From positions 370 to 64,369 of the forward strand of contig CANQNE010000011.1 in NCBI GenBank assembly GCA_947625135.1: a DNA stretch of 64,000 bases, read 5' to 3'. Positions 7,099 to 49,877 of this stretch are shown here, piece by piece. The stretch is from an uncultured Lachnospiraceae bacterium. Lineage in GTDB: Bacteria; Bacillota; Clostridia; Lachnospirales; Lachnospiraceae. Position 1 is the stretch's first letter; each line of letters begins with the position of its first letter. Made by a program: the position numbers and the translations under genes. A model generated the notes under the pieces. That model did not search any database. It saw nothing but the letters and a program-made list of their open reading frames with translations, and had not been told where the DNA came from.

Positions 7099-7332
7099 TT
7101 AACGGTCAAAAGACAGAAGACTACAAACAGAGACATCTAAAACATCGGCAATATCAAATAATGTATCCAGAGAAATGGAAGTTGGCATATTGGGCGCTTC
7201 AATATTACTCATGTGTGTCCGGCTGATATTGATCCGATCTGCAAGCTGTAGTTGGGTGTAGCCTTTCAGCTTTCTATAATAAGCAATATTCAGACCGAGC
7301 ATCTTGTATTCCCGTGTCCATTTTTTATTCAT
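7099..7332 (-). CDS. XRE-family HTH transcriptional regulator (78 aa)
   Basis: Start moved to the ATG at 7332, after GGAGGTG. HTH segment YYRKLKGYTQLQLADRINISRTHMSNIE. AT-rich gene, divergent from the repeat-protein operon. Confidence 0.8.
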   Translation of the reverse strand: MNKKWTREYKMLGLNIAYYRKLKGYTQLQLADRINISRTHMSNIEAPNMPTSISLDTLFDIADVLDVSVCSLLSFDR

Positions 7333-7413
7333 TCGCGTCACCTCCATGTAAAGTGTACCTACTAACATATTGTTTTTAAACAATATAAAATTTTGCAAAT
7401 GCAAATTTATATG

Positions 7414-7442
7414 TTGCAAAATTTGAAAAAGTATAGTAGTAT
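7414..7442 (+). promoter_or_regulatory. Candidate sigma-A promoter for the Cys-repeat operon
   Basis: TTGCAA, 17 nt, TAGTAT. The -35 hexamer is the third TTGCAAA repeat in this intergenic region. This would give a leader of about 230 nt. Confidence 0.35.
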
Positions 7443-7676
7443 ATAAGCGAAAAGGTGTATTCATACGACGGGAGAAGTATACGCATTACCCAAATTACAC
7501 CGGCGGAGGCAATAGTACAAGGAAATAGCAGGACAGACTCATGGAAAATGATTTCGAGCTGACCTTGCGGACTGCGTGAGGAGGTGTGAAATGAAAAAGC
7601 TGAATCGGGCGAGACCACCAAATGGAAAGCGCCCGTAAATCTGTAACAAAAAAACAATAGAAACGGAGGACATGCA

Positions 7677-10600
7677 ATGAGTATCCTGAAACGGATCTTA
7701 GTTGTACTTCTGTCATTGTGTATGGCAGTTTCTCCTGTCTATGTGGCTTCAGCAGGAACAGTGGAAGCTGCGGAGGGAGCGCATACACATAAATATGACA
7801 AGTCAACGGTAAAAGAGGCTAGTTGTAAGGAACCGGGAATTGACAAGTACGAGTGCGAATGTGGTGATTCCTATTATTCCATCGTTACTGTACCCCATGA
7901 TTACGACACAAATGGGGACGGCAAAGAGGATATCAATGATGAGGGCACCTCAATTACAAAGCAGCCCACTTGTACGGATAAGGGTCAGATTACCTATACC
8001 TGTAAGGTGTGTGGAGCCAAAAAGGTAGATGAACTGCCTGCAAACGGACATACACCCGGGACCCCTGAATTGATTCCCCATACCTGCACCGAGAATGGCA
8101 AGGCTGTGATCAAGTGTACTGTTTGTCATGCAGTTCTTGAGACAACGGATCTGGGCGACGCTGATAAGGCGCCCGGAACAGATCATGTGCCCGGCCCTGT
8201 GCAGAAGGAAAATGAAAAGGCAGTGACCTGTAAGAAAGACGGCTCTTATGACAATGTGATCTACTGTACAGTCTGCAAGGCGGAGATCAGCCGCGAGACA
8301 GTGACAGTGAAATCAACAGGTCAGGAGCATGTTTACAGTGAAGAAGACCTTCAGGTTGTAAAGCCTGCCAGCTGTACCGAAAACGGTATTTCCAGCTACA
8401 CCTGTAAAGAGTGTAAGGAAGTCGGCTATGTAGTGATCAATGCTTCTCACAGCTGGAAGCTGAAAGAGAAAGCGGAAGACGACTACAAGGAAAGGGTAGA
8501 AGCGACCTGCGGCAAGGATGGCAAAGGTACATACCAGTGCGAGGTCTGCGGCGAGACAAAGGTTGACGTGATTCCGGCAACCGGACAGCATACTATTGTA
8601 GAAGAGTATAAGGATCCTACCTGTACAGAAGCGCAAATGTATGAGAAGAAATGTTCTGTCTGCGGGAAGGTGCTGGAGTCAAAGCCGGTAGAAGGCAGCA
8701 AACCCAATGGTCACAAGGAAGCATCAAGATACGTGGCGCCTACCTGTACCAAGAACGGTCAGAATGAGACTTACTGTACAGTCTGCAACAAAGTGTTGAA
8801 GACGGAGGATCTTGGCGAGCTGGATCCTTCCAAGGGCGGCCATAAGCTGGGCGACTGGACAGCCGACAAGACGGATAAGAAATGGAAGGACGTTACCTGT
8901 AAAGAGAACGGCCTCAAGGTAGAAGTACAGATCTGTTCTGTATGTAAGGAAAAAGTAAACAGAAGAGAAACTGTTGTAGAGTCCACAGGAACAGAGCATA
9001 AATACCCTGCAGTTGGCAAGGGAACAGTGGTTACCCCTGCAAGCTGTGAAAAGAACGGTATTGAGCGTGTGACCTGTGAAATCTGTAAGGCATCCACCTA
9101 CCGTGTTGTTCCCGCAAGCCATAACTGGGTAGACAAAGGCTGGGTAGCAGGCAAGGAAGCTACCTGCGCAAAGGACGGCGAAAAGAATTTCGAGTGTGCC
9201 GTCTGCAAAAAGACAAAGACCGAAAAGGTTTCCAAGTCTACAGTGAAGCATACGCCCGGTCAAGAAGAGTATCAGGAGCCTACCTGTACAGAGCGCGGCA
9301 AGATGGTGGTTAAGTGTACAGTCTGCAAGGCTGTGATCTCCTCCAAGGATGTAACAGGCAAGGAAGCGGATCCGAAGGGACATAAGGAAGCAGTAAGATT
9401 TGTAGAAGCGACCTGTGAGAAGAACGGTCAGAGCGAGACTTACTGTACAGTCTGCAACAAAGTGCTGAAGACGGAGGATCTTGGCGAGCTGGCACCTTCC
9501 AAGGGCGGCCACAAGCTGGGCGACTGGACAGCCGACAAGACAGATAAGAAATGGAAGGACGTTACCTGTAAAGAGAACGGCCTCAAAGTAGAGGTACAGA
9601 TCTGTTCTGTATGTAAGGAAAAAGTAAACAGAAGAGAAACAGTTGTGGAATCCACAGGAACAGAGCATAAATACCCTGCAGTTGGCAAGGGAACAGAGGT
9701 TACCCCTGCAACCTGCGACAAGAATGGTATCGAGCGTGTGACCTGTGAAATCTGTAAGGCGTCCACCTACCGTGTTGTTCCCGCAAGCCATAACTGGGTA
9801 GACAAAGGCTGGGTAGCAGGCAAGGAAGCTACCTGTGCAAAGGACGGCGAAAAGAATTTCGAGTGTGCCGTCTGCAAAAAGACAAAGACTGAAAAGGTTT
9901 CCAAGTCTACAGTGAAGCATACGCCCGGTCAGGAAGAGTATCAGGAGCCTACCTGTACAGAGCGCGGCAAGATGGTGGTTAAGTGTACAGTCTGCAAGGC
10001 TGTGATCTCCTCCAAGGATGTAACAGGCAAGGAAGCGGATCCGAAGGGACATAAGGAAGCAGTAAGATTTGTAGAAGCGACCTGTGAGAAGAACGGTCAG
10101 AGCGAGACTTACTGTACAGTCTGCAACAAAGTGCTGAAGACGGAGGATCTTGGCGAGCTGGCGCCTTCTAAAGGCGGCCACAAGCTGGGCGACTGGACAG
10201 CTGACAAGACAGATAAGAAGTGGAAGGACGTTACCTGTAAAGAGAACGGCCTCAAGGTAGAAGTACAGATCTGTTCTGTATGTAAGGAAAAAGTAAACAG
10301 AAGAGAAACTGTTGTAGAATCCACAGGAACAGAGCATAAATACCCTGCAGTTGGCAAGGGAACAGTGGTTATGGCTGCAACCTGCGACAAGAACGGTATC
10401 GAGCGTGTGACCTGCGAGTTCTGTAAGATTTCCACCTATCGTGTTGTTCCCGCAGGCCATAACTGGGAGACAAGAGGTTATGTGGAAGGCAAAGTGCCTA
10501 CCTGTGCAAAGGATGGCGAGGAGAAGTTCGAGTGTACAGTCTGCGGAAAGACGAAGACTGAGAAGGTCTCCAAGTCTACGATCAAGCATCAGTATGAGAC

Positions 10601-11978
10601 AGTTGGCGTAGTTGCGACCTGTGAGCATCCTGATCTGATTCAGGAAAAATGTTCTGTCTGCGGCAATGTAAAGAGCAGCAAAGAAGTAGCAGGAAGCAAG
10701 CCGCTCCCGCACACACCGGAAACAAAGTATGTTCCGGCTACCTGTACAGAGAACGGAAAGAATGTGACTACCTGTACAGTCTGCAAAAAGGTACTGGAAT
10801 CTGACGATCTCGGAGATCTGGATCCTGCTACCGGCGGACATGAGTACGAGGAAAAGGTAGTTGCACCCAACTGTAAGGAGAAAGGCTATACGCTGCATAC
10901 CTGTAAGAAGTGCGGCGACAGCTACAAGACTGATGAAACCGAGCCTAACGGCCAGCATGTTGTGAAGCTTTCAGATCCGAAGGATTATCTGAAGCAGCCT
11001 ACCTGTACTTCAACGGGTATCTCAAAGGCAACCTGTGCTGTCTGCAAAGCGGATCTTGGTTATGCGGCTGTGCCTATGACCCCTCATGTATTTGACGGAT
11101 CAAAGGCAAAGATCACGAAAGAGCCTACCTGTACCGAACCCGGTATCATGGAAAGCCCTTGTGCTAACGGCTGCGGCGCAAAAGCGACAGAGGAACTGGC
11201 GGCTCTTGGTCATAAGTATGGCGAAGAGAAGGTTTCTGAGGACGGCAAGACCGTATATCAGGAATGTTCCGTATGCGGCGACATCAAAGTGATCTGGAGT
11301 GAAGATCCCTGCGCAGGAAAGCATACGCCCGGGGAACCCCAGAAGGAAAAAGAAGTAGCGGCAACCTGCGACAAGGCAGGTTCTTACGAAGAAGTTGTAT
11401 ATTGTACAGTATGCAAGAAAGAAATTTCCAGAACTCCCAAGACGGTGGATGCTCTCGGACATAAGCCCGGCGCTGCAGTGAAGGAAAAAGAGGTCGCTGC
11501 AACCTGTGAAACAGCAGGTTCCTACGAGGAAGTAATTACCTGTACAGTGTGCAAGAAAGAAATTTCCAGAACTCCCAAGACAGTGGCCGCACTTGGACAT
11601 AAGCCCGGCGCTGCAGTAAAGGAGAACGAAGTAGCAGCAACCTGCGACAAGGCAGGCTCTTACGAAGAGGTTACCTATTGTACAGTCTGCAAGAAGGAAA
11701 CCTCCAGAGCAAAGAAGACCGTGCCCGCAGGCAACCACACTCCGGGAGCTGCAGTAAAGGAAAATGAAGTGGCTGCAACCTGTGATAAAGAAGGTTCTTA
11801 TGAAGAGGTTACCTACTGTACAGTCTGCAAGAAGGAAATTTCCAGAGTGAAGAAGACAGTAGAAAAGACCGGTCATACATTCGGTGATTATGAGTATGAG
11901 TACAATGAAGAAACAAACAGATGGGATGTATATCGTACTTGTACCGTATGCGGAACCAGAGAAAAAATTGACTATTGA
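7677..11978 (+). CDS. Secreted 1,433-aa protein composed of about 32 tandem Cys3-His modules (function unknown)
   Basis: SD GGAGGA 6 nt upstream. Signal peptide MSILKRILVVLLSLCMAVSPVYVASA. Reiterated pattern (A/P/V)(T/S)C-x3-G-x5-7-C-x2-C-x10-20-H. No enzyme motif and no LPXTG. Confidence 0.85.
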   Translation: MSILKRILVVLLSLCMAVSPVYVASAGTVEAAEGAHTHKYDKSTVKEASCKEPGIDKYECECGDSYYSIVTVPHDYDTNGDGKEDINDEGTSITKQPTCTDKGQITYTCKVCGAKKVDELPANGHTPGTPELIPHTCTENGKAVIKCTVCHAVLETTDLGDADKAPGTDHVPGPVQKENEKAVTCKKDGSYDNVIYCTVCKAEISRETVTVKSTGQEHVYSEEDLQVVKPASCTENGISSYTCKECKEVGYVVINASHSWKLKEKAEDDYKERVEATCGKDGKGTYQCEVCGETKVDVIPATGQHTIVEEYKDPTCTEAQMYEKKCSVCGKVLESKPVEGSKPNGHKEASRYVAPTCTKNGQNETYCTVCNKVLKTEDLGELDPSKGGHKLGDWTADKTDKKWKDVTCKENGLKVEVQICSVCKEKVNRRETVVESTGTEHKYPAVGKGTVVTPASCEKNGIERVTCEICKASTYRVVPASHNWVDKGWVAGKEATCAKDGEKNFECAVCKKTKTEKVSKSTVKHTPGQEEYQEPTCTERGKMVVKCTVCKAVISSKDVTGKEADPKGHKEAVRFVEATCEKNGQSETYCTVCNKVLKTEDLGELAPSKGGHKLGDWTADKTDKKWKDVTCKENGLKVEVQICSVCKEKVNRRETVVESTGTEHKYPAVGKGTEVTPATCDKNGIERVTCEICKASTYRVVPASHNWVDKGWVAGKEATCAKDGEKNFECAVCKKTKTEKVSKSTVKHTPGQEEYQEPTCTERGKMVVKCTVCKAVISSKDVTGKEADPKGHKEAVRFVEATCEKNGQSETYCTVCNKVLKTEDLGELAPSKGGHKLGDWTADKTDKKWKDVTCKENGLKVEVQICSVCKEKVNRRETVVESTGTEHKYPAVGKGTVVMAATCDKNGIERVTCEFCKISTYRVVPAGHNWETRGYVEGKVPTCAKDGEEKFECTVCGKTKTEKVSKSTIKHQYETVGVVATCEHPDLIQEKCSVCGNVKSSKEVAGSKPLPHTPETKYVPATCTENGKNVTTCTVCKKVLESDDLGDLDPATGGHEYEEKVVAPNCKEKGYTLHTCKKCGDSYKTDETEPNGQHVVKLSDPKDYLKQPTCTSTGISKATCAVCKADLGYAAVPMTPHVFDGSKAKITKEPTCTEPGIMESPCANGCGAKATEELAALGHKYGEEKVSEDGKTVYQECSVCGDIKVIWSEDPCAGKHTPGEPQKEKEVAATCDKAGSYEEVVYCTVCKKEISRTPKTVDALGHKPGAAVKEKEVAATCETAGSYEEVITCTVCKKEISRTPKTVAALGHKPGAAVKENEVAATCDKAGSYEEVTYCTVCKKETSRAKKTVPAGNHTPGAAVKENEVAATCDKEGSYEEVTYCTVCKKEISRVKKTVEKTGHTFGDYEYEYNEETNRWDVYRTCTVCGTREKIDY
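8708..10714 (+). repeat. Three tandem 669-bp (223-aa) in-frame repeats inside the giant CDS
   Basis: Identical landmarks at 8771, 9440 and 10109 (TTACTGTACAGTCTGCAACAAAGTG). The string starting at 9361 recurs at 10030. The high-identity tract runs about 8760-10465. Confidence 0.9.
11319..11875 (+). repeat. Four tandem 138-bp (46-aa) repeats at the 3' end of the giant CDS
   Basis: GGACATAAGCCCGGCGCTGCAGT recurs at 11457 and 11595. Protein unit: HKPGAAVKEKEVAATCxxAGSYEEVxxCTVCKKEISRTPKTVxALG. Confidence 0.85.
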
Positions 11979-12064
11979 TCTGCAGAGCAGGCGATTGATC
12001 TGACCGATCATAGTTGATCAGCTGCCGGTCTGCGATTGGCAGACCGGCAGAATTCAGAAAGGAT

Positions 12065-12664
12065 ATGGCAATGAAAAAAGTTATTGTAGGAATACTTACG
12101 CTGGTCATGGTACTGTCAGCAATGCTCTCACTGGCAGGATGTCAGGACAAAAAAACTGATGTTCAGAACGACACGCCGGTCAGTGCCACGGAAGAATCTC
12201 AGACTGCCGGAGAAAAAGAAACAGAGACAATGATCAACAGTAATCTGAATCCGGATGAGATCACACAGAGCGAACAGGAATCCATTGATCTGCTTGCGTC
12301 TGATATGACTGTTGTGACGGATGAAAATTTCGGAGAGATAGTCAACGAGGCGATTTATCATACAAGCGAGTTTAGTGGCAAAGTGTACCAGCTTGAAGGT
12401 GTTTACACTACAAACACCGAGGGAGGGGTTCCTTACCTTTATCGTTTTCTGGTAAACGGAGAGGAGGAAACCTTCTGTGGATTGCCATTGGTTTATTTGA
12501 ATAAACAGTTCAATGATGGCGATTGGATCAAGGTGACAGGAATTTTCAACGCTCATGAGATCAATGGTGCTTCCATCACAGCGTTGGAGATTGTGGCGGC
12601 ACAGCGGCTTCCGCAGGCGGGACAGGAGAAGATCCCCTGGTCCGGCGCCGCTCACGATCATTAA
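12065..12664 (+). CDS. Lipoprotein of unknown function
   Basis: Start moved to the ATG at 12065 because the ORF-track start lies inside a 12-bp hairpin. Signal peptide plus lipobox LSLAGC, an acidic linker, then a domain of about 110 aa. Confidence 0.7.
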   Translation: MAMKKVIVGILTLVMVLSAMLSLAGCQDKKTDVQNDTPVSATEESQTAGEKETETMINSNLNPDEITQSEQESIDLLASDMTVVTDENFGEIVNEAIYHTSEFSGKVYQLEGVYTTNTEGGVPYLYRFLVNGEEETFCGLPLVYLNKQFNDGDWIKVTGIFNAHEINGASITALEIVAAQRLPQAGQEKIPWSGAAHDH

Positions 12665-12675
12665 GGAGGGATTAG

Positions 12676-13731
12676 ATGAATTTGAAATACGGAAAAAAGC
12701 GTTTTCTCAGTGCGCTGCTGATTTGCCTTTTCGTTGTCAGCTGCTTTTCCTTTACGGCAATGGCTGCTGAGGATCATGAACACAATTTCGAGAGTACGGT
12801 GGTTCATGAGGCAACCTGTACAAGAGTGGGAATCGGCTTGAATCGGTGTACGATCTGCGGATATGAGCAGCATTATGAGATTCCGATGATCGATCACGAT
12901 TATACAAGATCAGTGGTACATGAAGCTACCTGTGTAGAAAACGGTATTGCATTGCTTACCTGTAAGGTTTGCGGTGCAGAAGCCCATGAGGCGATTCCGG
13001 CAACAGGCCATACACCGGTAACGGACGCTGCTGTGGCAGCTGCCTGTGAAACGGCAGGCCTGACGGAAGGCAGTCATTGTTCTGTGTGCGGCGCGGTACT
13101 TACTTCTCAGGAGACTGTACCGGCAAAGGGTCATAATCTGACCGCTGTAGCGGCAAAGGATCCTACAGAAACAGAAGCAGGCAACAAGGCATATTACGTA
13201 TGCGCTGACTGCGGCAAGCTGTTTGAGGATCAGGCCGGGACAACAGAGACTACTTTGGAGCAGGTAACGATACCTGCCACAGGTCCTGTGACACCCAGCG
13301 CAGCGCCCAGTGAGGAACCCAGTGCAGCGCCCAGTGAGAAACCCAGCGCAGCGCCCAGTGAGAAACCCAGCGCAGCGCCCAGCGAGGAACCCAGTGCAGA
13401 ACCCAGCACGGAGCCCAGCGCAGCGCCCAGTACGGAGCCCAGTGCAGAACCCAGCACAGAGCCCAGTGCAGCGCCCAGCGAGAAACCCAGTGCAGAACCC
13501 ACTGCAGAACCTGAAACGAACCCCAGTGCAAGACCTGATGCCAATAGCGGCAGCGCCACAGGCGGCACAAATGTAAACGGAGGCGGATCTGCTGCGGTAA
13601 AGACGTCTTCAAACGGAAATGTTGCAGCGCCTAAGACAGTAGATGGTTATACGATCGTTACATATCTGACGATGATCCTTCTTTGCTGTGCAGGTGTTGG
13701 TTTTCTGGCAAAAAAAGGAATCAGGGAATAA
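12676..13731 (+). CDS. Membrane-anchored surface protein with four Cys3-His modules, a Pro/Ser/Ala/Glu linker and a C-terminal TM anchor
   Basis: SD AAGGAGGG. Signal peptide ending AMA. Modules ATCTRVG..CTIC..H, ATCVENG..CKVC..GH, AACETAG..CSVC..GH, then CADC. The C-terminal hydrophobic segment is followed by KKGIRE. Confidence 0.8.
   Translation: MNLKYGKKRFLSALLICLFVVSCFSFTAMAAEDHEHNFESTVVHEATCTRVGIGLNRCTICGYEQHYEIPMIDHDYTRSVVHEATCVENGIALLTCKVCGAEAHEAIPATGHTPVTDAAVAAACETAGLTEGSHCSVCGAVLTSQETVPAKGHNLTAVAAKDPTETEAGNKAYYVCADCGKLFEDQAGTTETTLEQVTIPATGPVTPSAAPSEEPSAAPSEKPSAAPSEKPSAAPSEEPSAEPSTEPSAAPSTEPSAEPSTEPSAAPSEKPSAEPTAEPETNPSARPDANSGSATGGTNVNGGGSAAVKTSSNGNVAAPKTVDGYTIVTYLTMILLCCAGVGFLAKKGIRE
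13294..13530 (+). repeat. 24-bp (8-aa) tandem repeat encoding a (E/K)PSA(A/E)PS(E/T) linker
   Basis: CCCAGTGCAGCGCCCAGTGAGAAA-like units repeated about 10 times. This tract creates the spurious ORFs seen in other frames. Confidence 0.85.
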
Positions 13732-13779
13732 TTGATTCTTCGGATTCCAAATGAAAGTCAATTTTATAAGTTAATAGAA

Positions 13780-13818
13780 AGAGTGGGAATACGAAAAAGT
13801 ATACCCACTCTTTTTTAT
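13780..13818 (+). terminator. Rho-independent terminator ending the Cys-repeat operon
   Basis: AGAGTGGGAATAC / GTATACCCACTCT stem (one mismatch) followed by TTTTTTATTT. Confidence 0.7.
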
Positions 13819-18516: not shown

Positions 18517-18602
18517 GATGCGGCGCAGCCTTTTGAGGGCAGCGCCGTATTTGGTTCTAAAAACGGACGGGCCTCATATATTGAGGTAAGAGAGGTGAGG
18601 AC

Positions 18603-19595
18603 ATGCAAGAGAAAAAAGAAGAATTGCTTCGGATATTTGCACCTTCCGTAAAGAGAATACTGGAGTATGCGCAAATAGACTGGAAAAAGCTGCAGGAGAT
18701 TCGGCTGCGGATTCTTTCCCCGCTGCTGATCATTTATGACGGAAAGGAATATGGATTAAGAAGCGACGGCAGCCTTCTGACGAAAAGCGGGGAAGCGTAC
18801 CGGGTGACAGAGCAGGATCTCCGGGAGACGCTGCAGATTGTATCTTCTTATTCCTTATACGCCTATGAGGAGGAGATCAAACAGGGATTTTTGACTGTGA
18901 GCGGCGGCCACAGGATCGGACTGGCGGGAAAGACCATACTGGAGAAGGGGCTCATCAAAGGGATGCGTTATATTTCCTGCATCAATGTAAGAGCCGCTCA
19001 TCAGATCATTGGCTGCGCGGATCAGGTGATGCCTTATGTGACGGAGAGAGAAAACAGCTGCAGCTGTCTGATCATTTCCCCGCCGGGCTGCGGTAAGACA
19101 ACCCTTCTGCGGGATATGATCAGGCAGTTTTCAGACGGAACAGGGGGCAGATCGGGAAAAGCCGTAGGCGTTGTGGACGAGCGGTCGGAGATCGGCGGCT
19201 GCTACCGGGGGATCCCTCAGAACGATGTAGGTATGCGGACGGATATTCTGGACTGCTGTCCAAAAGCAGAAGGGATGATGATGCTGATCCGCTCTATGGC
19301 TCCGGATATCGTTGCGGTAGACGAAATCGGCGACGAGCGGGATGCGGACGCCATCGAAGCGGTGATACACTGCGGCTGTAAGCTGCTGGCTACCGTACAT
19401 GGGAGTTCTCTGGAGGATATCAGCCGGAAACCCCTGCTGGAACGGCTGACGAAGGAGCGGCTGTTTGACCGGTACATTTTGCTTCAGAACAGGCAGGAGC
19501 AGAGGGGAGAGGGACTGTTGGAGGAAAAGGATCATGTCAGTTCCAGGCTGAAGCTGATTACTGACAGCGCCGGCAATGTGCTGTTTCGCAGATAA
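18603..19595 (+). CDS. spoIIIAA: Stage III sporulation protein AA (ATPase)
   Basis: 330 aa with Walker A SPPGCGKTTLLRD and Walker B-like VAVDEIG. First gene of an eight-gene spoIIIA-type operon. Confidence 0.9.
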   Translation: MQEKKEELLRIFAPSVKRILEYAQIDWKKLQEIRLRILSPLLIIYDGKEYGLRSDGSLLTKSGEAYRVTEQDLRETLQIVSSYSLYAYEEEIKQGFLTVSGGHRIGLAGKTILEKGLIKGMRYISCINVRAAHQIIGCADQVMPYVTERENSCSCLIISPPGCGKTTLLRDMIRQFSDGTGGRSGKAVGVVDERSEIGGCYRGIPQNDVGMRTDILDCCPKAEGMMMLIRSMAPDIVAVDEIGDERDADAIEAVIHCGCKLLATVHGSSLEDISRKPLLERLTKERLFDRYILLQNRQEQRGEGLLEEKDHVSSRLKLITDSAGNVLFRR

Positions 19596-19625
19596 GGACA
19601 ATGCGCAGAAAAAGGAGGAAAAGGG

Positions 19626-20144
19626 ATGCTGAAGCTCGCAGGCGCGGCGACAGTCTGTATATCCGCCGCCGTATTTGGAATCTGTCTTGCGGGGGAATTG
19701 AAGGAAAAGGTAAGGCTATTAGAGGAATTTCGGCGTTGCTTTTTTATGATCCGGGGAGAGATCCGTTTTTCCAACGCTACTTTATCAGAAGCATTTATGT
19801 CGATTGAGAACCGGGGCGCAGAGCCTTTGCCCCGGTTTTTCGGAGAGATGGGAAAGCTGCTGGAAGAAAATCCGGAACGGGGGCTTGGAACGATCTGGCG
19901 GGAACAGACGGCGGAAATATTTGGAAAGAGTGTGTTTTCCGGAGAAGAACTGCAGTGGATCTCCGGACTTGGAGAGAGATTGGGTTATCTGGATCGGGAA
20001 ACGCAGCTGGGCACGCTGGAAATGATTCTGGAGCAGCTGGAGGCAAAGGAAGCGGAGGCAGACAGGATCTATGCAGACAAGGGCAAGGTGTATCGCTGCG
20101 TGGGAGCCATGAGCGGGATTTTGGTCGTTCTGCTATTACTATAA
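19626..20144 (+). CDS. spoIIIAB: Stage III sporulation protein AB
   Basis: 172 aa with N- and C-terminal TM segments. Position and size fit spoIIIAB. Confidence 0.8.
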   Translation: MLKLAGAATVCISAAVFGICLAGELKEKVRLLEEFRRCFFMIRGEIRFSNATLSEAFMSIENRGAEPLPRFFGEMGKLLEENPERGLGTIWREQTAEIFGKSVFSGEELQWISGLGERLGYLDRETQLGTLEMILEQLEAKEAEADRIYADKGKVYRCVGAMSGILVVLLLL

Positions 20145-20157
20145 CAGGAGGTCGTTC

Positions 20158-20352
20158 ATGAGTGTATCAATCATTTTTCGGATCGCGGCGGTAGGGATTC
20201 TGGTGTCTGTGCTGGGACAGGTCTTAAAGCACAGCGGTCGGGACGATCAGGCATTTCTGGCAAGTCTGGCGGGACTTTTGCTGGTACTGTTCTGGATATT
20301 GCCTTACATATATGATCTGTTCGAGACTATTCAGCGCATGTTTTCCCTGTGA
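20158..20352 (+). CDS. spoIIIAC: Stage III sporulation protein AC
   Basis: 64-aa two-TM protein with SD AGGAGG. Operon position fits. Confidence 0.8.
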   Translation: MSVSIIFRIAAVGILVSVLGQVLKHSGRDDQAFLASLAGLLLVLFWILPYIYDLFETIQRMFSL

Positions 20353-20370
20353 GCAAAGAGGAGGAAAATC

Positions 20371-20754
20371 ATGACTATCATCAAGATCGCAGTGATCGGC
20401 ATTGTGGGTGCGATTCTGGCTGCGCAGCTGAAAGAATTTAAATCCGGCCACAGCGTGCTGATGGCACTTGCCGTCGGGCTGATCATTTCCGCATGGACGG
20501 TGAGCAGGCTGGACACAGTGCTGGATATGGTGGACCGGGTACAGAGTCTTGTGTCCGTCAACAGCGCTTATATCCTGACTCTGCTGAAAATGCTCGGCAT
20601 CACCTATATTTCCGACTTCGGCGCAGGATTGTGCAAGGATGCGGGACACAGCGTCATCGCCCACCAGATTGAGATTTTTGGTAAGGTTTCTATTCTGGCA
20701 GTTAGTATGCCGGTGCTGACGGCGTTGATCGAGACGATTGAGAGGTTGCTATGA
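20371..20754 (+). CDS. spoIIIAD: Stage III sporulation protein AD
   Basis: 127-aa polytopic membrane protein with SD GAGGAGG. Operon position fits. Confidence 0.8.
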   Translation: MTIIKIAVIGIVGAILAAQLKEFKSGHSVLMALAVGLIISAWTVSRLDTVLDMVDRVQSLVSVNSAYILTLLKMLGITYISDFGAGLCKDAGHSVIAHQIEIFGKVSILAVSMPVLTALIETIERLL

Positions 20755-21965
20755 CAGATAAAAAGGCGTTTTTTTGGGCGGCTGTATTGCTGGGTGTGTT
20801 GTGTTTGTTCTGTGTGCCTGCCCTGGCCGGCGAAAATGCTGGGGAGCAGCCAGAGACAGGTACGCAAGATCCGGAGGAAAGTCAGTGGCAGCGGCAGCTG
20901 GACCAGAAGTGGGACAGCGCGCTGGAGGACACGGATTTTGAGGAACTGGAGCAGGCCATGGAGGAAGCGCTGGAAACGGATCAGATTTCTTTTGCGGAAC
21001 TGGCGAAAGGGCTGGCCTCCGGAAAGATCAAACCGGATATGGAGCTGGTGCGGGAGCTTGTGAACAAAGGTGTTTTCGGAAATATGAAGGGCGCGAAGGG
21101 GATTCTGACCCAGATTCTGGCACTGTCTATTTTATCCGCTTTCTTTTCCATGATCGCATCGATATTCGGAAACGGACAAGTCTCTGACATCAGCTTCTAT
21201 GTGGTGTTTCTCATATTGCTGGCGCTTTTGATGAGTTCCTTTGCAAGGGCGTCAAAAATCGCGTCGGAAACCATTGAGAAGCTGCTGTTATTTGTAAAGG
21301 TGATGATGCCGGTCTACATGGTGATCGTGGCGGCGGCCGGGGGCGGCACTACAGCGGTGGTGTTTTATGAGTTTTTCCTGTTTTTGGCATTTGTTGTCAA
21401 CTGGCTGATCCTGCGGGTGCTGATACCGATGATCCATGTATATGTGGTGATGGGGGTAGTCAACCATCTTTCGAAGGAGGATCTGTTTTCAAAAGCGGCG
21501 GATCTGATCCGCACAGCGGTAAAGTGGGCGTTAAAGACCATTGTGGGACTGGTGATCGGCTTTCAGCTGCTGCAAAGTCTTATCGCGCCTTTTATCGACA
21601 GCTTCCGGTCCGCCTCCCTGCACCGCACGCTGATGTCCATACCGGGCGTGGGCAACGCCATCAACGGGATCACGGAAATGGCGATCGGGGCGGGAATCCT
21701 TATCAAAAACGGTATGGGCAGCGCGGCGCTGATCGTGATCGTGCTGATCTGCCTGACGCCGGTTCTGATGCTGGGCGTATATGTATTTTTGTTCCAGCTG
21801 TCCAGAGCGCTGATCCAGCCGGTGGCGGATAAGCGGATCCAGAAATGTATCGGCTATGTGCGGGAAGGGACTGCGCTTCTTATGCGCACGCTGATGATCA
21901 CCTGCTTTTTGTTTTTGCTGACTGTTGCGGTACTGACAGCGTCTACAAACGGCGGGATCAGTTAG
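20751..21965 (+). CDS. spoIIIAE: Stage III sporulation protein AE
   Basis: 404 aa: signal peptide, acidic region, then multiple TM segments. Overlaps spoIIIAD by 4 nt. Confidence 0.85.
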   Translation: MTDKKAFFWAAVLLGVLCLFCVPALAGENAGEQPETGTQDPEESQWQRQLDQKWDSALEDTDFEELEQAMEEALETDQISFAELAKGLASGKIKPDMELVRELVNKGVFGNMKGAKGILTQILALSILSAFFSMIASIFGNGQVSDISFYVVFLILLALLMSSFARASKIASETIEKLLLFVKVMMPVYMVIVAAAGGGTTAVVFYEFFLFLAFVVNWLILRVLIPMIHVYVVMGVVNHLSKEDLFSKAADLIRTAVKWALKTIVGLVIGFQLLQSLIAPFIDSFRSASLHRTLMSIPGVGNAINGITEMAIGAGILIKNGMGSAALIVIVLICLTPVLMLGVYVFLFQLSRALIQPVADKRIQKCIGYVREGTALLMRTLMITCFLFLLTVAVLTASTNGGIS

Positions 21966-21982
21966 AAAGGCAGGAGGAAGCC

Positions 21983-22498
21983 ATGGACGGGGTTTTACAG
22001 TGGATCAGGACGGTGATCATTTATCTCATTCTGGTATCGGCGGTAATGCACCTGCTGCCGGACAACGGTTATAAGAAATATGTGCAGCTTTTTACGGGAC
22101 TTCTGCTGATCTTGATCGTTGCGGAGCCGCTGGCGGATTTTCTGGAAGGGGAACAGACGGTGGATAAGATTTACCGGCAGGCGGTGGAATGGCAGGAAAA
22201 GGCGGAGCGGGATCAGGTGCTGGAACAGATCGAGGAGACAGAAAAACAGGCGGTATTGGACATCTATCAGGAGGAAATCGAAAAAGAGATCCGTGAACAG
22301 CTCCTGTCGGAAGGCTATGCGTGCAGAACCATACAGGTGGAGCTTTCGGAACAGGGAGTGGAAGCTGTCTTTGGGGAGCTGATTCCCCCGGAGGAAAGAG
22401 ACAGGATGAAAGAGAGAGAGGAGGAAAGGCGGATGGAAGAATTGATCAGCGAGGTGTATCAAGTCCCGCTGTCTTCTATACAGATTAAAATAGGGTAG
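21983..22498 (+). CDS. spoIIIAF: Stage III sporulation protein AF
   Basis: Start moved to the ATG at 21983, after AGGAGGA. N-terminal sequence MDGVLQWIRTVIIYLILVSAVMHLLP. Confidence 0.8.
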   Translation: MDGVLQWIRTVIIYLILVSAVMHLLPDNGYKKYVQLFTGLLLILIVAEPLADFLEGEQTVDKIYRQAVEWQEKAERDQVLEQIEETEKQAVLDIYQEEIEKEIREQLLSEGYACRTIQVELSEQGVEAVFGELIPPEERDRMKEREEERRMEELISEVYQVPLSSIQIKIG

Positions 22499-22507
22499 GT
22501 GCCGGAT

Positions 22508-35707: not shown

Positions 35708-35900
35708 CGCAATTAAATAGGGAACAGTCAGGTGTCAGAGCAATGATTGTATGATTGGCTCTGGTGAAAAGGGAAACAGGTGTAAGTCCTGTGCGAACTC
35801 GTCACCGTAATCAAGGAGCAGAAGCTGATATATCACTGGGAAACTGGGAAGATGGCGGATGCGATGATCTTTAAGCCGGGAGACCTGCCTGATTGTTGTA
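35708..35900 (+). promoter_or_regulatory. Cobalamin (B12) riboswitch aptamer
   Basis: Hallmarks in order: AATAGGGAACAG, GGTGAAAAGGGAAAC, CGTCACCGTAA, CACTGGGAAACTGGGAAG, and the B12 box AGCCGGGAGACCTGCC (35874-35889). Confidence 0.85.
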
Positions 35901-35992
35901 CAGAAACGATTGTTTCAGACCACGAGTAACTGGTTGTACATAATGTACGGAAAATCCTGTCTGTGATTTTTCGTATGTTTCATTTGTGTGCG

Positions 35993-49804: not shown

Positions 49805-49877
49805 GGGGCATTAGCGCAGTTGGGAGCGCGCCACACTGGCAGTGTGGAGGTCACGGGTTCAAGTCCCGTATGCTCCA
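49805..49877 (+). tRNA. tRNA-Ala (anticodon GGC)
   Basis: 73-nt cloverleaf. Acceptor GGGGCAT/ATGCTCC with G3:U70, anticodon stem CCACA/TGTGG, loop CTGGCAG, T-arm ACGGG-TTCAAGT-CCCGT. CCA is not encoded. Confidence 0.9.

What the first reader, a model, noticed from the sequence alone, without database searches (positions are those of the whole stretch)
7099..13818. Self-contained locus: XRE regulator, long leader, giant Cys3-His protein, lipoprotein and a membrane-anchored short paralogue
The three + strand genes (7677-11978, 12065-12664, 12676-13731) are tightly spaced and each has a good SD. They share one candidate promoter (7414-7442) and one strong terminator (13780-13818). A small AT-rich XRE repressor gene is transcribed divergently.

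The last gene carries the same Cys3-His modules, followed by a Pro/Ser/Ala/Glu stalk and a C-terminal TM anchor. The giant protein has no anchor of its own. A reasonable model is an anchor subunit displaying or nucleating the free giant subunit through like-with-like module contacts, with the lipoprotein as an assembly or partner factor. This is the best candidate in the window for an undescribed cell-surface system.
Basis: inference. Interest (0 to 1): 0.7.

Follow-up and report, generated by a model that had tools for sequence, protein, structure and literature searches.

The report
Zinc-module surface fibre gene cassette
This gut Lachnospiraceae locus encodes a giant secreted rod built from 32 small cysteine/histidine (probably zinc-stabilised) modules, plus a membrane lipoprotein and a short anchored relative; the same trio recurs in many gut Clostridia, so it is probably an undescribed, fast-evolving cell-surface fibre system.

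Summary
The locus has an XRE gene (7099-7332, -), a 344-nt intergenic region, and three + strand genes ending at a strong terminator.

- **Giant (1433 aa):** signal peptide plus 32 tandem modules (30 His+Cys3, 2 Cys-poor "caps"). It has no anchor.
- **Module fold:** a five-module AlphaFold2 model has pLDDT 94, with three strands per module. The modules match the "ZBD/CTD2-CTD4" stalk of the Thomasclavelia ramosa IgA protease. Two 2025 papers call that stalk a novel, predicted zinc-binding periscope fold.
- **Middle gene:** an OB-fold lipoprotein distantly like DUF1980_C.
- **Last gene:** four modules, a proline-rich stalk and a sorting-signal-like C-terminal anchor.

The order giant(cap) - OB lipoprotein - short anchored protein recurs in at least 8 lineages. 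Six related giants (four with this trio, two with a ZnuA-like variant) follow a site-specific recombinase; five have inverted repeats suggesting an invertible promoter. XRE occurs only here and in the closest relative.

The giant is hypervariable: 41-46% identity where neighbouring genes are 85-97% identical.

Co-conservation is shown. Physical docking and like-with-like contacts are not, and one relative's anchored partner lacks the modules.

The parts
7099..7332 (-). XRE-family regulator gene (77 aa, single HTH_3 domain), AT-rich, transcribed divergently
   Evidence: PF01381 scores 43.9 bits against a cut-off of 23. It is 84% identical to the 77-aa gene at the same position in L001. GC is 38.9%. 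A GGAGG Shine-Dalgarno lies upstream of the ATG at 7332.
7340..7460 (.). Conserved divergent control region with three TTGCAAA(A)TTT half-sites (inverted-repeat arms 7377-7398 / 7414-7435). These are candidate XRE operators overlapping the promoters.
   Evidence: The block is about 90% identical to L001, while the next ~100 nt are unalignable. Inverted repeats are present in both loci, including a perfect 11-nt pair in L001.
7414..7442 (+). Candidate promoter TTGCAA-17-TAGTAT for the three-gene operon
   Evidence: Read from the sequence. L001 has TTGCAA-17-TACTAT at the aligned position. It matches 8 of 12 consensus positions, below the scan threshold. Function is not shown.
7591..7638 (+). 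Small upstream ORF in the leader (MKKLNRARPPNGKRP*) with a GGAGG Shine-Dalgarno
   Evidence: The Shine-Dalgarno and the first ~10 codons are conserved in L001 (MKEVNRARAPTG...), whereas the surrounding leader is diverged. Function is unknown.
7677..11978 (+). Giant secreted protein (1433 aa): signal peptide plus 32 tandem His/Cys modules, with no anchor
   Evidence: ORF. Module parse. No Pfam or NCBIfam family. More than 4533 homologues. A five-module AlphaFold2 model has pLDDT 94.3. Similarity to the IgA protease ZBD region of 9qa6 gives E=4.6e-7.
8703..10709 (+). Three tandem 669-bp DNA repeats, each encoding five modules
   Evidence: Direct repeats with 669-nt spacing are 91% identical over 300 nt. 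Modules 12-16 and 17-21 are nearly identical. Four public contigs of the same strain break inside this gene.
11205..11318 (+). Internal 'cap' module (aa 1177-1214): His + CxxC, without the first Cys
   Evidence: Module parse. It has the same motif as the C-terminal cap.
11871..11975 (+). C-terminal 'cap' module (GHTFGDYEYEYNEETNRWDVYRTCTVCGTREKIDY)
   Evidence: The same type of cap ends the upstream protein in every related cassette. The C-terminal ~140 aa are 79-96% conserved in L012 versus L018, whereas the middle is 22-50% identical.
12022..12050 (+). Intercistronic hairpin (perfect 12-bp GC-rich stem, 5-nt loop, no T-run)
   Evidence: Sequence and fold. A strong hairpin directly after the giant's stop codon is also present in L001, L010, L011 and L012, although the sequences differ.
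12071..12664 (+). OB-fold lipoprotein (197 aa; alternative start 12065) with a C-terminal W-x-G...H-x-H tail
   Evidence: Lipobox LAGC. DUF1980_C gives 24.1 bits, just below the 25.9 cut-off, and TIGR03943 gives E=2.5e-8. The AlphaFold2 model has pLDDT above 90 for aa 60-190. Foldseek's best hits are PriB/SSB OB folds. The family has 206 clusters.
12676..13731 (+). Short anchored paralogue (351 aa): signal peptide, 3 full + 1 variant module, Pro/Ser/Ala/Glu stalk, then PKTVD + hydrophobic segment + KKGIRE
   Evidence: ORF and modules. PT repeat at 40 bits. A 24-nt tandem repeat lies at 13293-13495. It is 46% identical to the L001 counterpart. Counterparts elsewhere end in VPKTGD, PQTGD or PETGD sorting signals.
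13780..13818 (+). Intrinsic terminator closing the operon
   Evidence: A 13-bp stem with one mismatch, a 6-nt loop and TTTTTTATTT. Synteny with L001 ends here.

Best explanation
The locus is an XRE-controlled operon for a cell-surface fibre system of a spore-forming gut Lachnospiraceae.

**Shown**
- The major product is an anchorless, Sec-secreted rod of 32 small three-stranded beta modules.
- Each module carries an invariant His + Cys3 set.
- The modules are homologous to the stalk modules (ZBD1/2 = CTD2/4) of the T. ramosa IgA protease, which are predicted to be zinc-stabilised.
- The gene order giant(cap) - OB-fold lipoprotein - short anchored protein is conserved across many lineages.
- A hairpin follows the giant gene in five lineages.
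- The giant diverges far faster than its partners and neighbours.

**Inferred**
- Zinc replaces disulfides to rigidify the rod in an anaerobic habitat.
- At about 3.7 nm per module (from the published IgA protease model), the rod would be of the order of 100 nm long.
- The hairpin lets the giant be made in excess of the two accessory proteins.
- The short paralogue is the base that holds the fibre at the surface. It is wall-spanning here and sortase-anchored in relatives.
- The lipoprotein is a membrane-tethered assembly or docking factor. It would act on a conserved feature of the giant, most plausibly the conserved C-terminal cap region or nascent modules, possibly including metal delivery.
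- XRE represses the operon through the TTGCAAA repeats.
- In most relatives the same cassette is switched by an invertible promoter. Together with the hypervariability, this points to an exposed, immune- or phage-targeted structure.
For: - **Modules:** periodic H-x10-19-C-x9-11-CxxC pattern. Ligand columns are invariant in 44 sequences.
- **Fold:** the AlphaFold2 model has pLDDT 94.3 with 15 strands for 5 modules.
- **Link to the IgA protease:** profile match to 9qa6 residues 852-1003 at E=4.6e-7, and anchor module 4 at E=5.6e-10. The published descriptions of those residues report three-stranded sheets, Cys/His sites at their interfaces, an elongated shape and no disulfides (PMC12237041, PMC12415215).
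- **Extracellular use elsewhere:** the same modules are fused to SLH, cohesin, dockerin, CW_binding_2, Big_2, Flg_new and GH43 domains.
- **Cassette conservation:**
- **Boundary:** synteny with L001 breaks at the 3' end.
- **Hairpins:**
- **Sorting signals and sortase genes in relatives:**
- **Evolutionary rates:** window versus L001 gives flanking genes 85-93%, giant 46%, lipoprotein 56%, anchor 46%. L012 versus L018 gives upstream DNA 99%, lipoprotein 97%, paralogue 95%, giant 41.5% with conserved ends.
- **Switches in relatives:** a recombinase plus 18-25-nt inverted repeats enclosing a promoter upstream of related giants.
- **Operators:** operator-like repeats conserved with L001.
Against: - No interaction among the three proteins was tested, and no multimer model could be run.
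- Metal occupancy is inferred from sequence and from predictions in the literature, not measured. I could not inspect site geometry because model coordinates are not returned.
- The giant has no recognisable head or adhesive domain and no anchor, so it may simply be released.
- The OB domain of the lipoprotein is unchanged in L019 although that giant's cap differs by about 50%. This argues against a tightly co-evolving cap-lipoprotein pair.
- In L023 the anchored protein has no Cys3-His module.
- In L010 and L011 the cassette has a different second protein without an anchor and a ZnuA-like lipoprotein.
- The window's sorting motif is degenerate, and no sortase gene lies in the 64 kb.
- Co-transcription and XRE control are not shown.
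Confidence: 0.5

Rival explanations
1. The genes are co-regulated but independent. The operon would encode two unrelated-in-function surface or secreted module proteins plus a lipoprotein, with no physical complex. The giant would be shed into the medium or matrix, for example as a biofilm, decoy or shield component.
For: - The giant has no anchor and no dedicated docking domain.
- The T. ramosa IgA protease is found mainly in the supernatant despite having a sorting signal (PMC12237041).
- The anchored partner is not always a module protein (L023).
- The partners do not co-vary with the giant.
Against: The strict gene order is kept across at least 8 lineages despite very fast sequence turnover and changes of regulator. 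A conserved cap and a conserved C-terminal end sit beside a hypervariable middle. Both are hard to explain without functional coupling.
Confidence: 0.25
2. The lipoprotein is an extracytoplasmic metallochaperone or folding factor. It would load zinc into, or chaperone, the ~32 Cys3-His sites as the unfolded giant leaves the Sec channel. It would not be a structural anchor.
For: - The closest subfamily has an invariant C-terminal HxH tail and His97. More distant members carry an EHDGHSH loop or His-rich N-termini.
- Canonical DUF1980 relatives have a CCxAD motif and Cys/His-rich loops.
- The lipoprotein stays conserved while the giant's sequence is replaced, as expected for a factor that recognises generic module features.
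- Variant cassettes carry a lipoprotein of the ZnuA fold.
Against: - None of the candidate ligand residues is conserved across the whole family.
- By eye, the ZnuA-like proteins lack the canonical His ligand motifs.
- No paper found here links DUF1980/YcgQ/ScfB to metals.
- Thousands of proteins carry the module against only 206 lipoprotein clusters, so most module proteins probably have no such neighbour; this was not examined directly.
Confidence: 0.2
3. The rod is a steric shield or phage/immune barrier, analogous to C. difficile CwpV or staphylococcal Pls/SasG shielding, rather than an adhesin. This is a rival at the level of function and is compatible with the anatomy above.
For: - The mature protein is all stalk, with no head domain.
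- Related cassettes have recombinase-controlled invertible promoters, mostly assembled in the OFF orientation.
- The giant is hypervariable between strains.
- CwpV is a phase-variable repeat protein that gives phage resistance (PMC4737114, listed).
Against: There is no homology to CwpV. No phenotype data exist. The window's copy has no recombinase or inverted repeats.
Confidence: 0.15
4. The giant is an extracellular zinc store or buffer. It would sequester or scavenge metal through ~32 sites rather than serve a structural role.
For: It has about 32 predicted Cys/His sites per molecule. Metal-family-like lipoproteins lie nearby.
Against: Fully coordinated Cys3-His sites inside small beta modules are typical structural sites (PMC12415215). 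The same modules serve as spacers in many enzymes and scaffold proteins. No Zur-type regulator or zinc transporter lies in the locus.
Confidence: 0.04

Closest known systems
ZBD1/ZBD2 (= CTD2/CTD4) stalk of the Thomasclavelia ramosa M64 IgA protease, described as 'metal-associated periscope domains' (PMC12415215, PMC12237041; PDB entry 9qa6 holds the sequence)
   Same: Significant sequence similarity (E=4.6e-7 with the module profile; E=5.6e-10 for anchor module 4). Both have ~35-50-aa three-stranded antiparallel sheets in series, Cys/His sets at the sheet junctions, no disulfides and an elongated shape. Both are extracellular proteins of gut Firmicutes with a PxTG-type sorting signal.
   Different: The protease has 2-3 such sheets per domain, serving as a spacer for an enzyme. 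Here 32 of them make up the whole mature protein. The protease sites are mostly His2Cys2, whereas here they are His+Cys3. The published domains are AI models supported by SAXS, and zinc has not been shown in them. No lipoprotein or paralogue cassette is described there.
Periscope proteins (SasG, Aap, Rib, Sgo_0707; PMC8201768)
   Same: Rod-like tandem arrays of similar small domains, with near-identical DNA repeats in the gene. Length differs between relatives: 1433 versus 1194 aa, and 1428-1489 aa in the L012 group.
   Different: The archetypes carry an N-terminal ligand-binding head and their own LPXTG anchor. This giant has neither. The domains here are metal-type, not SHIRT, G5-E or Rib.
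Clostridioides difficile CwpV (PMC4737114)
   Same: A large repeat-containing surface protein of a Clostridium relative whose expression is switched by a recombinase-inverted DNA segment. Related giants here have the same arrangement: a recombinase followed by inverted repeats 111-308 nt apart, with a promoter identified between them in three loci.
   Different: No sequence homology. CwpV has its own CW_binding_2 anchor. The window's copy is under an XRE regulator, not a recombinase.
Anchoring scaffoldin logic of Ruminococcus cellulosomes: a sortase-anchored ScaE holds anchorless ScaB through a C-terminal module (from my own knowledge, not tested here)
   Same: A large anchorless repeat protein ending in a distinct C-terminal module, encoded next to a short sortase-anchored protein.
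   Different: No cohesin or dockerin domain in this locus. No evidence of binding.
DUF1980 / TIGR03943 (B. subtilis YcgQ, S. pyogenes ScfB; PMC5584981)
   Same: The lipoprotein's OB-fold domain is weakly similar to DUF1980_C.
   Different: It is a lipoprotein without the N-terminal membrane domain, without the partner permease gene and without the CCxAD motif. The function of DUF1980 is itself unknown.

Membership tests
IgA-protease ZBD / 'metal-associated periscope' module (PMC12237041, PMC12415215) | Significant sequence similarity to ZBD1/ZBD2 of T. ramosa IgAse | tested here: met
   The profile of 44 five-module segments matches 9qa6_A residues 852-1003 at E=4.6e-7. The anchor ectodomain matches residues 853-895 at E=5.6e-10.
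IgA-protease ZBD / 'metal-associated periscope' module (PMC12237041, PMC12415215) | Subdomains are three-stranded antiparallel up-and-down sheets arranged in series | tested here: met
   The AlphaFold2 model of modules 12-16 has pLDDT 94.3 and 15 strands, three per module. No PDB fold match was found, as also reported for the ZBDs.
IgA-protease ZBD / 'metal-associated periscope' module (PMC12237041, PMC12415215) | Four Cys/His ligands per junction in tetrahedral geometry, occupied by zinc | not testable with these tools
   His + 3 Cys per module are invariant or nearly so. Model coordinates are not returned and no metal data exist. Zinc is also only predicted in the published domains.
Periscope proteins (PMC8201768) | Tandem array of highly similar folded domains encoded by high-identity DNA repeats | tested here: met
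   Three 669-bp repeats are 91% identical over 300 nt, and four 138-bp repeats are 75-78% identical.
Periscope proteins (PMC8201768) | Repeat-number (length) variation between closely related strains | tested here: inconclusive
   In the L012 group the giants are 1428-1489 aa, with a 41-aa gap block in two of them. The window has 1433 aa against 1194 aa in L001. No second complete copy from the window's own species is available, because its contigs break inside the repeats.
Periscope proteins (PMC8201768) | N-terminal functional head and own C-terminal wall anchor | tested here: not met
   Modules start at residue 37, directly after the signal peptide. The protein ends in the cap with no LPXTG or TM segment.
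DUF1980_C (PF21537) / TIGR03943 permease subunit | Score above the curated cut-off | tested here: not met
   PF21537 gives 24.1 bits against 25.9. TIGR03943 gives 33.6 bits against 88.8. The relatives P0122-P0125 and the L021 protein do carry precomputed PF21537 hits.
DUF1980_C (PF21537) / TIGR03943 permease subunit | N-terminal multi-TM domain, adjacent COG0701-type permease gene, CCxAD motif | tested here: not met
   The protein is a lipoprotein with a lipobox only. Its neighbours are module proteins. It has FCGLP in place of CCxAD.
XRE-family HTH regulators (PF01381) | HTH_3 domain above the cut-off | tested here: met
   43.9 bits against a cut-off of 23, over residues 16-69.
Sortase-anchored surface proteins (cell-wall sorting signal) | LPXTG-type motif followed by a hydrophobic stretch and a basic tail, with a sortase gene available | tested here: inconclusive
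   The window ends in ...AAPKTVDG + a 23-residue hydrophobic stretch + KKGIRE, with V in the place of G. L001 has AAKTAD. Counterparts in L012, L021, L022 and L023 have VPKTGD, PQTGD or PETGD, and L012 and L022 have an adjacent sortase gene. No sortase gene was found in the 64-kb window by tblastn. The rest of the genome was not seen.
Recombinase-switched (invertible promoter) surface genes, CwpV-like | Site-specific recombinase gene plus inverted repeats flanking a promoter upstream of the gene | tested here: not met
   In the window there is no recombinase homologue, no inverted-repeat consensus, and only 15-nt-spaced operator-like repeats. The feature is met in the relatives L010, L012, L021, L022 and L023. 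No inverted copy was seen among five contigs.
Cellulosome cohesin-dockerin anchoring | Cohesin and dockerin domains in the partner proteins | tested here: not met
   No PF00963 or PF00404 hit in any of the three proteins. Other proteins carrying the module do have them.

The most novel reading that the evidence does not exclude
This would be a widespread, undescribed surface-fibre system of gut Clostridia. An anchorless, strain-hypervariable rod of zinc modules would be held non-covalently at the cell surface by two conserved partners: an OB-fold lipoprotein and a short wall-anchored base protein. The contact would be through the rod's conserved cap end. The cap lacks the first Cys of the usual module, so it may have an incomplete metal site that could be completed by the lipoprotein's invariant HxH tail. 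The whole cassette would be switched ON/OFF by an invertible promoter or, as here, by an XRE repressor. The cell could then swap the exposed rod by recombination while keeping the docking machinery.
Probability: 0.25. Interest if true: 0.8.

Novelty: new variant of a known kind. Interest (0 to 1): 0.6.

Why it matters
Lachnospiraceae and Oscillospiraceae dominate the mammalian gut, yet their surface structures are almost unknown.

- The Cys/His module occurs in thousands of their extracellular proteins but has no Pfam or NCBIfam model. It was first noticed only in 2025, in a single IgA protease.
- This locus shows the module as the sole building block of a ~100-nm-class rod.
- It also places the rod in a conserved three-gene cassette with recognisable switches and strain-level hypervariability. 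These are hallmarks of structures that meet host immunity and phages.
- If the model is right, it gives a testable example of metal sites replacing disulfides in extracellular proteins of anaerobes. It would also be a new non-covalent display mechanism and a marker for phase-variable surface antigens in metagenomes.

Tried and rejected
- **Riboswitch or known RNA in the long leader:** nothing at gathering thresholds, and only noise at E up to 10.
- **Known protein family for the giant:** none in Pfam or NCBIfam. Relatives give only summed weak zf-BED hits with no single significant stretch.
- **Fold match for the five-module model:** none in the PDB, with TM no higher than 0.17. A single-sequence PDB search gave only spurious kinesin light chain hits.
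- **Phage or plasmid origin:** no tblastn match for the module segment.
- **Zinc link through the ZnuA-like lipoproteins of L010 and L011:** the Pfam hit is real. By eye, however, the proteins lack the canonical His-containing ligand motifs, so I did not use them as evidence for zinc.
- **Zinc link for DUF1980:** I recalled one, but found no support in the paper library.
- **Direct evidence of promoter inversion:** five contigs of the L012 group all have the same orientation.
- **Homologue search with the anchored protein:** it was swamped by PT-repeat low-complexity hits and was not informative.
- **First attempt at a shifted-register module alignment:** MAFFT aligned the overlapping windows by position (A2). 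I replaced it with segments cut from homologues (A3).
- **Iron-sulfur or electron-wire reading of the Cys3-His sites:** rejected. The motif is not CDGSH-like. Centres about 3.7 nm apart are, from general knowledge of electron-transfer distances, too far for electron hopping.
- **744-aa antisense ORF inside the giant (8724-10958):** treated as a mechanical by-product of the repeats. It overlaps a gene with thousands of homologues, and no evidence supports it.

Full report
**1. Observation**

- **XRE gene (7099-7332, minus strand).** It encodes a 77-aa single-domain HTH_3 protein (43.9 bits against a cut-off of 23). It is AT-rich: 38.9% GC against 49.2% for the window.
- **Giant ORF (7677-11978, 1433 aa).** It starts with a Sec-type signal peptide and has 96 cysteines.
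- **Modules.** Parsing on the CxxC knuckles gives 32 consecutive modules of 35-52 aa, each beginning with xH.
  - Thirty modules have the pattern H-x(10-19)-C-x(9-11)-C-x2-C. Two of these have CxC or Cx3C in place of CxxC.
  - Two are 'caps' that keep the His and CxxC but lack the first Cys. These are module 27 and the C-terminal module 32.
- **Conservation.** In an alignment of 44 diverse five-module segments, the His and the three Cys of every module are invariant or nearly so.
- **No anchor.** The giant has no transmembrane segment, LPXTG, SLH or wall-binding domain.
- **Middle ORF.** It is a lipoprotein with lipobox LAGC. Public contigs of the same strain call the start at 12071.
- **Last ORF (351 aa).** It has a signal peptide, three full modules, one variant module, a PT-type proline-rich repeat (40 bits; 24-nt DNA repeat), and a hydrophobic C-terminus followed by KKGIRE.
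- **Terminator at 13780-13818.** It is convincing.

- An 86-92-nt spacer with a perfect 12-bp hairpin and no T-run (12022-12050) separates the giant from the lipoprotein gene.
- The proposed promoter is weak by consensus.
- The leader holds no Rfam family.

**2. What the module is**

- Neither Pfam nor NCBIfam has a model for it.
- It is nevertheless very common. More than 4533 of the 8000 scored candidates match the giant.
- Named sources are Lachnospiraceae, Oscillospiraceae, Ruminococcaceae and other Clostridia.
- In those proteins the modules are fused to SLH, cohesin, dockerin, CW_binding_2, Big_2, Flg_new, LRR, F5/8-C, transglutaminase and GH43 domains. It is therefore an extracellular spacer module.
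- An AlphaFold2 model of modules 12-16, built with 44 homologous segments, has mean pLDDT 94.3. It shows three short strands per module.
- Foldseek finds nothing comparable in the PDB.
- A profile search of PDB sequences does hit one entry, 9qa6, the Thomasclavelia ramosa IgA protease. The hit covers residues 852-1003 and 1099-1133 at E=4.6e-7. The anchored protein's fourth module matches residues 853-895 at E=5.6e-10.
- Two 2025 papers describe exactly these regions.
  - PMC12237041 calls them ZBD1 and ZBD2. It describes them as elongated (about 110 Å for three subdomains), with each subdomain a three-stranded antiparallel sheet and putative zinc sites at the subdomain interfaces. [quoted passage not shown] SAXS of CTD2 agrees with the model.
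- So the module is homologous to a fold that has been noticed but not solved. Zinc binding is a well-founded inference, not a measurement.
- At about 3.7 nm per sheet, 32 modules would give a rod of the order of 100 nm. This is an inference.

**3. The lipoprotein**

- The AlphaFold2 model is confident (pLDDT above 90) for residues 60-190. It is an OB-fold barrel preceded by helices. The best Foldseek hits are PriB and SSB OB folds, with target TM-score about 0.5.
- Sequence similarity to DUF1980_C is just below threshold (24.1 bits against 25.9). TIGR03943 gives E=2.5e-8.
- A full HMMER scan of 1.84 billion representatives finds 206 clusters at E<=1e-3 and 24 at E<=1e-30. Nearly all are 150-220-aa lipoproteins.
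- The closest subfamily shares a C-terminal W-x-G...H-x-H end. Others have an EHDGHSH loop.
- Canonical membrane DUF1980 proteins carry CCxAD and Cys/His loops.
- These features hint at metal binding. However, no candidate ligand is conserved family-wide. DUF1980 (YcgQ/ScfB) has no known function.

**4. Comparative genomics**

*Loci found by searching with the lipoprotein alone*
- The search returned L001 (an uncultured rabbit-gut Lachnospiraceae), three short Logan contigs and eight metagenome contigs.
- Wherever the upstream flank is visible, it ends with a module protein terminating in the same kind of cap.
- Wherever the downstream flank is visible, it starts a signal-peptide protein with modules.
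- The one exception is the most distant relative, L020 (25% identity), which sits in another context.

*Loci found by starting from six other cap-terminated giants*
- Four are followed by a homologue of the lipoprotein (hmmsearch E from 3e-29 to 2e-52 for three; 30% identity for L012). Next comes a short protein ending in VPKTGD, PQTGD or PETGD plus a hydrophobic stretch and a basic tail. In two loci a sortase gene follows.
- Two (L010 and L011) have a variant cassette: a 520-558-aa module protein and a truncated ZnuA-fold lipoprotein.
- In L023 the anchored protein is a Flg_new protein without Cys3-His modules.
- About a third of the 120 best giant homologues are 'all modules plus cap'.

*Regulators*
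- L001 shares the XRE gene (84% identity) and an intergenic block with three TTGCAAA(A)TTT half-sites and the TTGCAA-17-TA(G/C)TAT promoter.
- All six other giants lie downstream of a tyrosine recombinase or resolvase gene.
- Five of them (all but L011) have 18-25-nt inverted repeats 111-308 nt apart.
- The repeats share a consensus in three loci (ACATAAT..G.ATTATGTGGTAA).
- In three of them I identified a sigma-70-type promoter between the repeats. It points away from the giant in L012 and L022 (TTGATT-17-TATAAT) and towards it in L023.
- This is the classical anatomy of an invertible promoter. I saw no inverted copy among five contigs, so inversion is inferred.

*Other shared features*
- A strong hairpin directly follows the giant's stop codon in five lineages, although the sequences differ.

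**5. Evolutionary rates**

| Comparison | Conserved genes or DNA | Lipoprotein | Anchored protein | Giant |
|---|---|---|---|---|
| Window vs L001 | Flanking ABC transporter genes 85-93%; XRE 84% | 56% | 46% | 46% |
| L012 vs L018 | Upstream DNA 99% | 97% | 95% | 41.5% |

- In L012 versus L018 the first 50 residues are 98% identical and the last ~140 residues 79-96%. The middle is 22-50%.
- The giant is thus a mosaic, rapidly replaced gene beside conserved partners.
- In L019 the cap end also differs while the OB domain is unchanged. This does not fit a tightly co-evolving cap-lipoprotein pair.

**6. Mechanism**

*Shown*
- The anatomy of the locus.
- The fold prediction.
- Homology to the IgA protease stalk modules.
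- Conservation of the cassette.
- The regulators present.
- The intercistronic hairpins.
- The rate contrast between the giant and its partners.

*Inferred*
- Zinc rigidifies the modules in place of disulfides in an anaerobic habitat.
- The hairpin gives an excess of the giant over the accessory proteins.
- The short protein is the base of the structure, wall-spanning here and sortase-linked elsewhere.
- The lipoprotein acts as a docking or assembly factor, possibly delivering metal.
- XRE represses through the TTGCAAA repeats.
- The structure is exposed to selection by immunity or phages.

I put 0.5 on this overall picture. The main rival is that the products do not interact and the giant is simply released (0.25). 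A pure chaperone role for the lipoprotein (0.2) and a shield function like CwpV (0.15) are refinements rather than contradictions. A zinc-store role is unlikely (0.04).

**7. Comparison and novelty**

- The module belongs with the IgA protease ZBD/CTD2-4 fold. Sequence and predicted structure were tested and agree. Metal occupancy could not be tested.
- The giant works like a periscope or fibrillar stalk but fails two defining features of that class: it has no head and no anchor of its own.
- The lipoprotein resembles DUF1980_C but is not a member by score, architecture or motif.
- The switch logic of the relatives resembles CwpV without homology.
- I found no paper describing the cassette.
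- I therefore rate it a new variant of a known kind. It is a surface repeat-protein system with a recently noticed metal module, a new three-gene organisation and a new partner family.

**8. Limits**

- Only 64 kb of this genome was seen.
- All context look-ups are exhausted.
- No coordinates, multimer models or expression data were available.
- Several related loci come from the same lineage, so I count lineages rather than contigs. There are at least eight: window/L001, L003, L004-5, the L012 group, L015, L021, L022 and L023.

Noticed in passing
window 7591-7638 (+): A 15-codon upstream ORF (MKKLNRARPPNGKRP*) with a GGAGG Shine-Dalgarno sits in the giant's leader. Its Shine-Dalgarno and first ~10 codons are conserved in L001 (MKEVNRARAPTG...), while the flanking leader is not. 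The R-A-R-P-P / R-A-R-A-P string recalls RAPP/RAGP-type ribosome-arrest motifs (from memory, untested).
   Followed up: partly
L010:6434-6726, L012:6376-6634, L021:5203-5363, L022:5503-5761, L023:5422-5777: Related giants lie downstream of a tyrosine recombinase or resolvase gene followed by 18-25-nt inverted repeats. In L012, L022 and L023 I identified a sigma-70-type promoter between the repeats. It faces away from the giant in L012 and L022 and towards it in L023. These are candidate invertible promoters. Five contigs of one lineage all show the same orientation.
   Followed up: partly
L012:7001-11416 vs L018:3521-7924 (and L019:3382-7851): The giants differ by up to 58% in protein sequence although the upstream DNA is 99% identical and the two downstream genes are 95-97% identical. 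Only the first 50 and last ~140 residues are conserved. This mosaic pattern suggests recombinational replacement of the exposed part.
   Followed up: partly
L003:234-467: An extra 77-aa lipoprotein lies between the giant and the OB lipoprotein. It consists only of a lipobox, a short linker and a single cap module.
   Followed up: no
L010:12441-13091 and L011:12038-12703: Variant cassettes end with a 216-221-aa lipoprotein that matches the N-terminal two thirds of the ZnuA profile (67 and 51 bits). By eye it lacks the usual His-containing ligand motifs. The preceding 520-558-aa module protein has an unassigned ~170-aa C-terminal domain.
   Followed up: partly
window 12022-12050; L001, L010, L011, L012 directly after the giant's stop codon: A GC-rich hairpin of 9-14 bp with little or no T-run follows the giant gene in every lineage examined, although the sequences are unrelated. 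It may be a partial terminator or an mRNA 3' stabiliser.
   Followed up: partly
window 8724-10958 (-), 11100-12011 (-): Long antisense ORFs (744 and 303 aa) run inside the giant gene. They are most likely a by-product of the purine-rich repetitive coding strand, and nothing supports them as genes.
   Followed up: no
window 35713-35906 (+) and 49805-49877 (+): A cobalamin riboswitch (98 bits) and a tRNA gene (67 bits) were found in the whole-window Rfam scan.
   Followed up: no
window ~18600-22500 (+): By comparison with same-strain contigs (L006, L007), a spoIIIA operon (SpoIIIAA to AF) lies a few kb downstream of the locus. The host is therefore an endospore-forming Firmicute. PTS HPr and enzyme I genes lie between the two.
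   Followed up: no
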